A DNA stretch of 19,672 nucleotides, from IMG/VR virus record IMGVR_UViG_2531839666_000030, positions 1 to 19,672 of that record. One strand, given 5' to 3'. The position numbers and the translations under genes were made by a program. This DNA is from a virus (lineage: Duplodnaviria; Heunggongvirae; Uroviricota; Caudoviricetes). How positions within the stretch are numbered: the first letter of the stretch is position 1; each line of letters begins with the position of its first letter. Below, piece after piece: positions 1,010 through 1,166 of this stretch. The notes under the pieces were generated by a model. The model had not been told where the DNA came from. It did no database searches and saw only the letters and a list, made by a program, of their open reading frames with translations.

Positions 1010-1166
1010 TTTGATACCGACAAGGGTTTTAGTGAAAGGAGGTGAAATCACCTGTAAGATACTGAAATAAAACAGGTGATCGATGATTCTGGAGGTTGTT
1101 TAGTTTTGATACTGATTAAATAAAATCCGGTATAAAATTAAGGTATCGGCAACAAATTTGATACTG
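1010..1166. repeat. cluster of putative transposase-binding repeats at the prophage left end (attL-like)
   Basis: Direct copies of GATAC(C/T)G at 1013-1019, 1057-1063, 1108-1114 and 1160-1166, three of them within TTTGATAC. Inverted copies GGTATC at 1142-1147 and CGGTAT near 1128-1133. An 8-bp inverted repeat TCACCTGT (1048-1055) / ACAGGTGA (1072-1079) flanks the second copy. Mu attL carries three MuA sites in the first ~200 bp. Confidence 0.6.

What the first reader, a model, noticed from the sequence alone, without database searches (positions are those of the whole stretch)
1010..1166. Left-end repeat array: GATAC(C/T)G in both orientations
Four direct copies of GATAC(C/T)G spaced 44-52 bp apart, plus inverted GGTATC and CGGTAT copies and a TCACCTGT/ACAGGTGA inverted repeat. 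This looks like the transposase-binding end sites of a transposable phage, but the motif differs from the Mu consensus I recall, suggesting a distinct end-recognition specificity.
Basis: seen in the sequence. Interest (0 to 1): 0.45.

Follow-up and report, generated by a model that had tools for sequence, protein, structure and literature searches.

The report
Transposase-binding repeats at a Mu-like prophage end
The repeats are the left-end transposase docking sites of a Mu-like (Sp18-type) prophage that has jumped into the E. coli kefC gene; this is an ordinary, expected feature of transposable phages, though this family uses a different recognition word from phage Mu.

Summary
GATACYG occurs at window 1013, 1058, 1108 and 1160, all on the + strand, a cluster never reached in 5,300 simulations. 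The window is E. coli kefC (1-992) interrupted at 993 by an Sp18-type Mu-like prophage.

The right end, read from six full copies elsewhere, carries the same word inverted. Its core starts at nt 21 from both termini, with a second copy 22 bp further in, as in Mu R1/R2. TTGATACY occurs 8 times in the 39.3-kb prophage, and 6 of these lie within 175 bp of the ends, pointing inward.

Only three left copies are conserved in relatives: L1 998-1019, L2 1093-1114 and L3 1145-1166. The 1058 copy and the inverted GGTATC/CGGTAT copies are not. The TCACCTGT/ACAGGTGA repeat belongs to a separate conserved block, possibly pac.

A sister clade has TTCAAGATAA at all six positions. All 22 transposase residues that separate the two clades lie in residues 81-189, which align with MuA end-binding domain I-beta.

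So these are MuA-type end sites with non-Mu specificity. Binding itself is inferred. Six putative sites in Sp18 are already cited in the literature, so novelty is low. Side finding: 4-bp, not 5-bp, target duplications.

The parts
1..992 (+). 5' part of host gene kefC, cut by the prophage insertion
   Evidence: Thousands of E. coli genomes match window 700-992 as kefC and the match stops at 992. The ORF 1-1005 runs from kefC into phage DNA.
993..997 (+). Left terminus of the prophage (5'-TGTAA...), the presumed cleavage and strand-transfer end
   Evidence: In six other genomes and in many IMG/VR contigs the conserved sequence starts at this T, and the preceding base varies.
998..1019 (+). L1, the terminal transposase-binding site (22-bp extent set by analogy with Mu nt 6-27); core TTTGATACCG 1010-1019
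   Evidence: The GATAC core starts at nt 21 from the terminus at both ends. It is conserved in all 13 left ends compared.
1021..1089 (.). Conserved spacer block (nt 29-97) holding the perfect inverted repeat ATCACCTGT 1047-1055 / ACAGGTGAT 1072-1080. The non-conserved GATACTG copy (1058-1064) lies in its loop. Candidate pac or architectural element.
   Evidence: The block is conserved across the Sp18 clade although the sequence after it diverges, and the first 88 nt are 96-100% identical in 233 E. coli genomes. The 1058 copy varies (GATGC, CATAC, AATAC). Relatives with Mu-like sequence here lack the hairpin. No terminator or Rfam family was found.
1093..1114 (+). L2 transposase-binding site; core TTTGATACTG 1105-1114
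   Evidence: TTGATAY at nt 114 in all nine Sp18-clade left ends, and at nt 123 or 89 in the Yersinia and Klebsiella relatives.
1127..1147 (-). Inverted partial copies CGGTAT (1128-1133) and GGTATC (1142-1147); not conserved as GATAC words. GGTATC overlaps the outer half of L3.
   Evidence: Relatives have unrelated sequence at 1127-1141, and only ATCGGCAAC (1145-1153) is conserved.
1145..1166 (+). L3 transposase-binding site, ATCGGCAACAAATTTGATACTG; core 1157-1166
   Evidence: TTGATAY at nt 166 in all Sp18-clade left ends, and at nt 165 or 131 in relatives. The outer half A(T/A)CGGC(A/G)A is also conserved.
1298..1816 (-). Mu c-type repressor gene
   Evidence: Pfam HTH_Tnp_Mu_1. Its N-terminus is 42% identical to the transposase N-terminus.
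1802..1956 (.). Repressor-ner intergenic region with repeated TTGATATTAAC-type words; candidate operators and transposition enhancer
   Evidence: Direct and inverted repeats. A promoter-like site lies at 1921-1949. The role is inferred from Mu.
2034..2279 (+). ner-like regulator gene
   Evidence: Pfam HTH_35, E 7e-27.
2260..4344 (+). MuA-type transposase gene (694 aa)
   Evidence: Pfam HTH_Tnp_Mu_1 and Mu-transpos_C, with weak rve hits. hhalign against MuA gives probability 98% over the full length at 27% identity. PDB sequence hits are to MuA I-alpha and to retroviral integrase cores.
2500..2826 (+). Transposase residues 81-189, the proposed reader of the TTGATACYR core (equivalent to MuA domain I-beta)
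   Evidence: All 22 residues that separate TTGATAC-type from TTCAAGATAA-type transposases lie here. The region aligns with MuA I-beta.
4415..5347 (+). MuB-type AAA+ target-selection ATPase gene
   Evidence: Pfam Phage-MuB_C (E 2.5e-25) and AAA_22.

Best explanation
Window 993-1166 is attL, the left transposition end of an Sp18-type Mu-like prophage inserted in kefC. It carries three binding sites for the phage's MuA-type transposase: L1 at 998-1019, L2 at 1093-1114 and L3 at 1145-1166. Each is a roughly 22-bp bipartite site whose inner half is the word TTTGATACYR. The right end holds three matching inverted sites with cores at nt 19-27, 41-49 and 76-84 from the terminus. By analogy with Mu, transposase subunits bound to these sites synapse the two ends, nick the 3' ends and join them to target DNA. 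That serves both integration and replicative transposition. The core word is proposed to be read by the helix-turn-helix of transposase residues about 130-190, the equivalent of MuA I-beta. The outer half-site would be read by the conserved I-gamma-like segment. Shown here: the site positions, their symmetry, their conservation, their co-variation with the protein, and the mobility of the element. Inferred: physical binding, the 22-bp site limits, and which domain reads which half.
For: 1. Six independent insertions define the ends as TGTAACCAGG... and ...CGCCGCGCTATA.
2. TTGATACY occurs 8 times in the 39,284-bp prophage. Six of these are within 175 bp of the ends, and all six point inward.
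3. The core starts at nt 21 from both termini, and R1-R2 are 22 bp apart. In Mu the RCGAAAR cores sit at the same positions, ending at nt 27/132/172 on the left and 27/49 on the right, against 27/122/174 and 27/49/84 here.
4. The word is invariant across diverged relatives from E. coli, Yersinia, Klebsiella and IMG/VR contigs while the flanks drift: TTGATA in 67 of 67 instances.
5. A sister clade whose transposase is 72-76% identical has TTCAAGATAA at all six equivalent positions. All 22 clade-discriminating transposase residues fall in residues 81-189, which align with MuA I-beta.
6. The element encodes MuA-like, MuB-like, c-like and ner-like proteins and sits at different loci in different genomes.
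Against: No binding or transposition experiment exists for this family as far as I could find. The transposase matches MuA by plain sequence search only in I-alpha, and Pfam finds no HTH_Tnp_Mu_2 domain, so the I-beta/I-gamma assignment rests on one profile alignment. R3 is in direct orientation here, whereas Mu has an inverted core at the comparable place.
Confidence: 0.88

Rival explanations
1. The repeats are recognition sites for the packaging machinery (pac, bound by the small terminase) or for the repressor or Ner, not for the transposase.
For: In Mu, pac lies in the left end between L1 and L2 (from memory, not checked here). The left end here has a conserved block with a perfect hairpin next to the repeats. 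TTGATAT-like words also occur in the operator region.
Against: The word is mirrored at the right end at the same distance from the terminus, which packaging or immunity sites do not need. It switches together with transposase residues 81-189. By contrast the repressor-like N-terminal module (residues 1-75) assorts independently of the word. The hairpin block and the repeats evolve independently of each other.
Confidence: 0.05
2. The repeats bind a host architectural protein such as IHF, HU or Fis, which bends the ends.
For: Mu end synapsis uses HU and IHF (PMC5961161), and the region is AT-rich.
Against: Two clades living in the same host species, E. coli O157-type strains and strain RM9088, use different words at the same six positions. 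That is not expected for a host factor. The word also does not resemble the IHF consensus as I recall it.
Confidence: 0.04
3. The repeats are a chance cluster of a short word in AT-rich DNA.
For: A 7-mer with one degenerate position is short, and the region is AT-rich.
Against: None of 5,300 simulations reached 4 copies in 160 bp. Six of the eight TTGATACY copies in 39 kb lie at the ends and point inward. The positions are conserved across genera.
Confidence: 0.01

Closest known systems
Phage Mu attL/attR: MuA binding sites L1-L3 and R1-R3
   Same: Both have three sites per end in inverted orientation between the ends. The terminal site is at nt 6-27 at both ends, R1 and R2 are contiguous 22-bp sites, and L1 is separated from L2 and L3 by about 90 bp. 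Both have a MuA homologue, a MuB homologue, c and ner, and a repressor and transposase that share an N-terminal domain.
   Different: The core word is TTTGATACYR instead of RCGAAAR. The right terminus is 5'-TA rather than 5'-TG, and target duplications are 4 bp rather than 5 bp (Mu's 5 bp from PMC3325207). R3 is direct at nt 76-84, whereas Mu has an inverted core at nt 56-62. The catalytic core is closer to canonical rve integrases than to MuA. The L1-L2 spacer is unlike Mu's.
Sp18, the Mu-like prophage of E. coli O157:H7 Sakai, and its relatives
   Same: It is the same phage family. Prophages with a 97.5-99.9% identical left region sit at various loci in 13 complete E. coli genomes, several of them O157:H7, and the left-end 88 nt occur in 233 genomes. 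The literature describes Sp18 as an intact, packaged, transposing Mu-like prophage (PMC2669165, PMC7430833). One paper states that Sp18 has 6 putative transposase-binding sites (PMC2628397).
   Different: The kefC insertion site of this window was not found among 5,426 complete genomes. I could not read the primary source, probably Morgan et al. 2002, J Mol Biol 317:337, so I cannot say whether its six sites are the ones mapped here.
Yersinia phage vB_YpM_5 and Klebsiella phage Kp4866-3
   Same: Both have TTGATAC at nt 19-25 of both ends and R2 at nt 41-47, with three sites per end. The vB_YpM_5 transposase gene is 78% identical in DNA.
   Different: Their L1-L2 spacer resembles Mu's (CCGGGAGGA...GGGATTTGATGGGAT) instead of the Sp18-type hairpin block.
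Putative transposase-binding repeats of other transposable phages, such as KS10
   Same: They are imperfect direct repeats at each end, inverted between the ends, predicted from sequence and differing from the Mu consensus in step with transposase divergence (PMC2628397).
   Different: KS10 has 4 sites of 15 nt, lacks TG/CA termini, and no flanking direct repeats were found at its integration site (PMC2628397).

Membership tests
Mu-type transposable-phage ends (arrays of MuA-type binding sites) | Several copies of one site at each end, inverted between the ends | tested here: met
   The left end has TTGATAY at nt 19, 114 and 166. The right end has it at nt 19, 41 and 76, and all copies point inward.
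Mu-type transposable-phage ends (arrays of MuA-type binding sites) | Terminal site at the same distance from both termini; R1 and R2 contiguous with a 22-bp period | tested here: met
   The core sits at nt 21-27 at both ends and again at nt 43-49 on the right, the same positions as in Mu.
Mu-type transposable-phage ends (arrays of MuA-type binding sites) | Sites match the MuA consensus (TGNTTCAYTNNAARYRCGAAAR, recalled from memory) | tested here: not met
   There is no RCGAAA core; TTTGATACYR stands in its place. The recognition is therefore Mu-like in architecture but not MuA-specific.
Mu-type transposable-phage ends (arrays of MuA-type binding sites) | 5'-TG...CA-3' termini | tested here: not met
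   The left end starts TG, but the right end finishes ...CTATA, which reads 5'-TA in reverse complement. Many relatives have TA at both ends.
Mu-type transposable-phage ends (arrays of MuA-type binding sites) | 5-bp target-site duplication | tested here: not met
   All 7 paired junctions share exactly 4 bp: tctg, ctga, tttt, cgag, tgct, gtca and taag.
Mu-type transposable-phage ends (arrays of MuA-type binding sites) | Element encodes a MuA-homologous DDE transposase and a MuB-type ATPase | tested here: met
   hhalign against MuA gives probability 98% over the full length. Pfam finds Mu-transpos_C, HTH_Tnp_Mu_1 and Phage-MuB_C.
Mu-type transposable-phage ends (arrays of MuA-type binding sites) | Insertion at many different target sites | tested here: met
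   The insertion loci differ in every genome examined, with 284 places in 233 genomes.
Mu-type transposable-phage ends (arrays of MuA-type binding sites) | Sites are physically bound by the transposase and required for transposition | not testable with these tools
   Only indirect support is available: the word co-varies with transposase residues 81-189.
Sp18-type prophages of E. coli | Near-identical sequence and gene order to the Mu-like prophages of O157-type strains | tested here: met
   The left 1.3 kb is 97.5-99.9% identical to prophages in 13 genomes. Gene order matches the annotated full copies. The Sakai Sp18 sequence itself was not examined.

The most novel reading that the evidence does not exclude
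The Sp18-type phages form a distinct branch of MuA-related transposition systems in three respects. Their strand transfer uses a 4-nt stagger. Their ends may finish in TA-3' instead of the near-universal CA-3'. Their end specificity is set by an exchangeable I-beta-like helix-turn-helix module (residues 81-189), which has been swapped together with all six end sites between sister clades (TTTGATACYR versus TTCAAGATAA). That would provide a natural pair of orthogonal transposase and end sets. The observations themselves are solid. What is uncertain is whether they are unpublished and whether the module alone sets specificity.
Probability: 0.45. Interest if true: 0.45.

Novelty: already known. 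Interest (0 to 1): 0.28.

Why it matters
For the scan, this shows that the finding is a correctly recognised but ordinary feature: the attL of a common E. coli Mu-like prophage. For transposition biology the family is mildly useful. It keeps Mu's end architecture but has a different recognition word, a 4-bp target duplication and TA termini. Two sister clades also appear to have exchanged both the DNA word and the matching protein module. That makes end specificity directly testable by domain and site swaps, and could yield orthogonal mini-Mu-like tools.

Tried and rejected
- A viral-contig scan for TTCAAGATAA-N12-TTCAAGATAA, meant to find right ends of the sister clade, returned only unrelated repeats. 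The right end was instead recovered from strain RM9088 beyond an IS insertion in mom.
- A search for other E. coli copies of the RM9088-type phage found none.
- A viral-contig scan for TTGATACY-N14-TTGATACY gave mostly chance hits. Only 9 unique true right ends were kept after filtering on the terminal GCGCG signature.
- The hairpin at 1047-1080 as a terminator of the repressor gene: no terminator-like site was found. No Rfam family matched 900-2300.
- The test of the pac idea by comparing the gp27-like packaging proteins of Sp18-type and RM9088-type phages was inconclusive, at 46% identity.
- Morgan et al. 2002 and the Mu transpososome structure paper are not held in the library. Which half-site MuA I-beta reads, the Mu consensus sequence and the position of Mu pac are therefore from memory.

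Full report
**Context.** The window starts with the E. coli kefC gene. Thousands of E. coli genomes match window 700-992 as kefC, and the match stops at 992. From 993 onward the sequence matches, at 97.5-99.9% identity, a prophage present in 13 complete E. coli genomes, each time next to a different host gene such as ypdA, yahO, hyfF, torZ, meaB or qor. The genes that follow are:
- a Mu c-type repressor (1298-1816, minus strand);
- a ner-like gene (2034-2279);
- a transposase with Mu N- and C-terminal domains (2260-4344);
- a MuB-type ATPase (4415-5347).

Full copies continue with Gam, Mor, lysis, head, tail, invertase, Com and Mom genes. This is therefore an Sp18-type Mu-like transposable prophage. 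The literature describes Sp18 as intact, packaged, not circularised and capable of transposition (PMC2669165, PMC7430833).

**Observation.** GATACYG lies at 1013, 1058, 1108 and 1160 on the + strand. The window holds 10 matches against 3.2 expected, and none of 200 shuffles reached 10. A same-strand cluster of four within 160 bp never occurred in 5,300 Markov simulations. The inverted CGGTAT and GGTATC copies and the perfect 9-bp inverted repeat at 1047-1055/1072-1080 are present.

**Exact ends.** Six independent full insertions show that the conserved sequence starts at TGTAACCAGG (window 993) and finishes at ...CGCCGCGCTATA. The prophage in L001 is 39,284 bp long. The flanks share exactly four bases in all six cases, and again in a seventh insertion of a sister phage in strain RM9088. 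Neither possible 5-bp reading fits more than a minority of cases. The family thus makes 4-bp target duplications, whereas Mu joins its ends 5 bp apart (PMC3325207). The right terminus reads 5'-TA in reverse complement, and many relatives have TA at both ends.

Read inward, the right end is TATAGCGCGGCGATTTTTTTGATACCGATTTGCATTTCATTTGATACCG...TTATTTGATACTA. TTGATACY occurs eight times in the whole prophage. Six of these are within 175 bp of the termini, three at each end, and all six point inward. The core starts at nt 21 from both termini. On the right a second core follows exactly 22 bp later and a third lies at nt 78.

**Comparison with Mu.** I fetched both Mu ends. Mu's RCGAAAR cores end at nt 27, 132 and 172 on the left and at nt 27 and 49 on the right, with an inverted core at nt 56-62. 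The Sp18-type cores end at nt 27, 122 and 174 on the left and at nt 27, 49 and 84 on the right. The architecture is therefore that of Mu attL/attR, with a different word in the inner half of each site.

**Conservation.** Yersinia phage vB_YpM_5, Klebsiella phage Kp4866-3 and many IMG/VR contigs carry TTGATAC at the same positions of both ends, while the surrounding sequence drifts. In 67 site instances TTGATA is invariant and the following C is present in 65.
- In nine Sp18-clade left ends the three sites stay at nt 19, 114 and 166.
- The copy at nt 66 (window 1058) reads GATGC, CATAC or AATAC in relatives.
- The sequence holding the inverted CGGTAT and GGTATC copies is replaced in relatives, except for ATCGGCAAC, which forms the outer half of L3.
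- A GATACGC at nt 62 of the right end is likewise not conserved.

The real array is therefore three sites on the left and three on the right. This agrees with a statement in the KS10 paper that Sp18, like Mu, FluMu and Pnm1, has six putative transposase-binding sites (PMC2628397). The source of that statement is probably Morgan et al. 2002, which I could not read.

**Co-variation with the transposase.** A sister clade comprises RM9088 and IMG/VR loci L040, L050, L051 and L053, with transposases 72-76% identical. It has TTCAAGATAA at L1, L2 and L3 and at R1, R2 and R3, at the same distances from the terminus. I aligned six transposases whose ends carry TTGATAC with five whose ends carry CAAGATA.
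- Every one of the 22 positions fixed differently between the two groups lies in residues 81-189.
- That segment is 46-48% identical between the groups, against 84-85% for residues 261-694.
- Residues 1-75 assort independently of the end word. In this phage they resemble the N-terminus of its own repressor (42% identity), as in Mu.
- A profile alignment with MuA (probability 98%, 27% identity, full length) places residues 81-189 on MuA residues about 75-160, which is domain I-beta.
- The clearest difference is a helix-turn-helix-like stretch: SEITLKRWIAAFNK versus SRDPLYQWVLKYNQ.
- The outer half of L1 (AGGTAAAT) and of R1 (GCGCG) is conserved in both clades, as is the I-gamma-like segment.

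That MuA I-beta and I-gamma each read one half of a 22-bp site is established knowledge that I recall. Which domain reads which half I could not verify here.

**The hairpin block.** Nucleotides 29-97 (window 1021-1089), including the inverted repeat, are conserved through the Sp18 clade, and the first 88 nt are 96-100% identical in 233 of 5,426 E. coli genomes. Relatives with the same TTGATAC word but a different spacer carry a sequence very like Mu nt 28-72 instead. As I recall, that is where Mu's pac site lies. The block is therefore a separate element, possibly the packaging site. A comparison of the packaging proteins did not settle this. It is not a recognisable terminator or a known RNA.

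**Verdict.** It is a known kind of feature in a known prophage family, and its sites have apparently been predicted before, so novelty is low. The 4-bp duplication, the TA termini, and the joint exchange of the end word and the I-beta-like module between sister clades are the points worth passing on.

Noticed in passing
window 989-993; L001-L006 both junctions; L007/L084 junctions: Target-site duplications of this phage family are 4 bp in all 7 paired junctions, not the 5 bp of Mu. The right terminus ends ...TATA-3' (5'-TA in reverse complement) instead of the canonical CA-3', and many relatives have TA at both ends.
   Followed up: partly
L007 41680-41560 (minus strand), L084 1925-2015, L040, L050, L051: A sister clade with 72-76% identical transposases has TTCAAGATAA instead of TTTGATACYR at all six end sites, at the same positions. 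All 22 discriminating transposase residues lie in residues 81-189 (window 2500-2826).
   Followed up: yes
window 1021-1089: A conserved block with a perfect 9-bp inverted repeat lies between L1 and L2. Relatives that keep the TTGATAC word carry a sequence like Mu nt 28-72 here instead. It is a candidate packaging (pac) or architectural element.
   Followed up: partly
window 1802-1956: The repressor-ner intergenic region holds several direct and inverted TTGATATTAAC / CATATCAAAC words that resemble the end word TTGATAC. One of them forms the -35 hexamer of a promoter-like site at 1921-1949. They are probably operators and the transposition enhancer.
   Followed up: partly
window 1298-1816 and 2260-2430: The repressor and the transposase share an N-terminal domain (42% identity over 55 residues), as in Mu. 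Across relatives this module is shuffled independently of the rest of the transposase.
   Followed up: partly
window 3178-3500 (transposase residues about 307-413): The catalytic core looks like a canonical rve-type integrase. Conserved D307, D373 and a PQGRGIIERLNRT motif with E413 give a D-to-E spacing of about 40, against 56 in MuA. Plain sequence search hits retroviral integrase cores rather than the MuA core. The residue assignment is my reading of the alignments and was not tested.
   Followed up: partly
window 1-992: The prophage interrupts kefC at about codon 331, so the glutathione-gated K+ efflux protein KefC should be inactive in this strain. This insertion site was not seen in 5,426 complete E. 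coli genomes.
   Followed up: no
window 993-1080, matched in E. coli genomes and in Stx phage records LC727881 and LC727895: The left-end 88 nt occur at 284 places in 233 complete E. coli genomes, up to 4 per genome. Some lie inside other prophages, including Stx-converting phages, so the family is active and common in STEC-type strains.
   Followed up: partly
window about 18710-18830; L003 18689-18768: RefSeq annotates a 'tRNA-OTHER' between the head-morphogenesis and virion-morphogenesis genes of several related prophages, but ARAGORN finds no tRNA or tmRNA anywhere in the window.
   Followed up: partly
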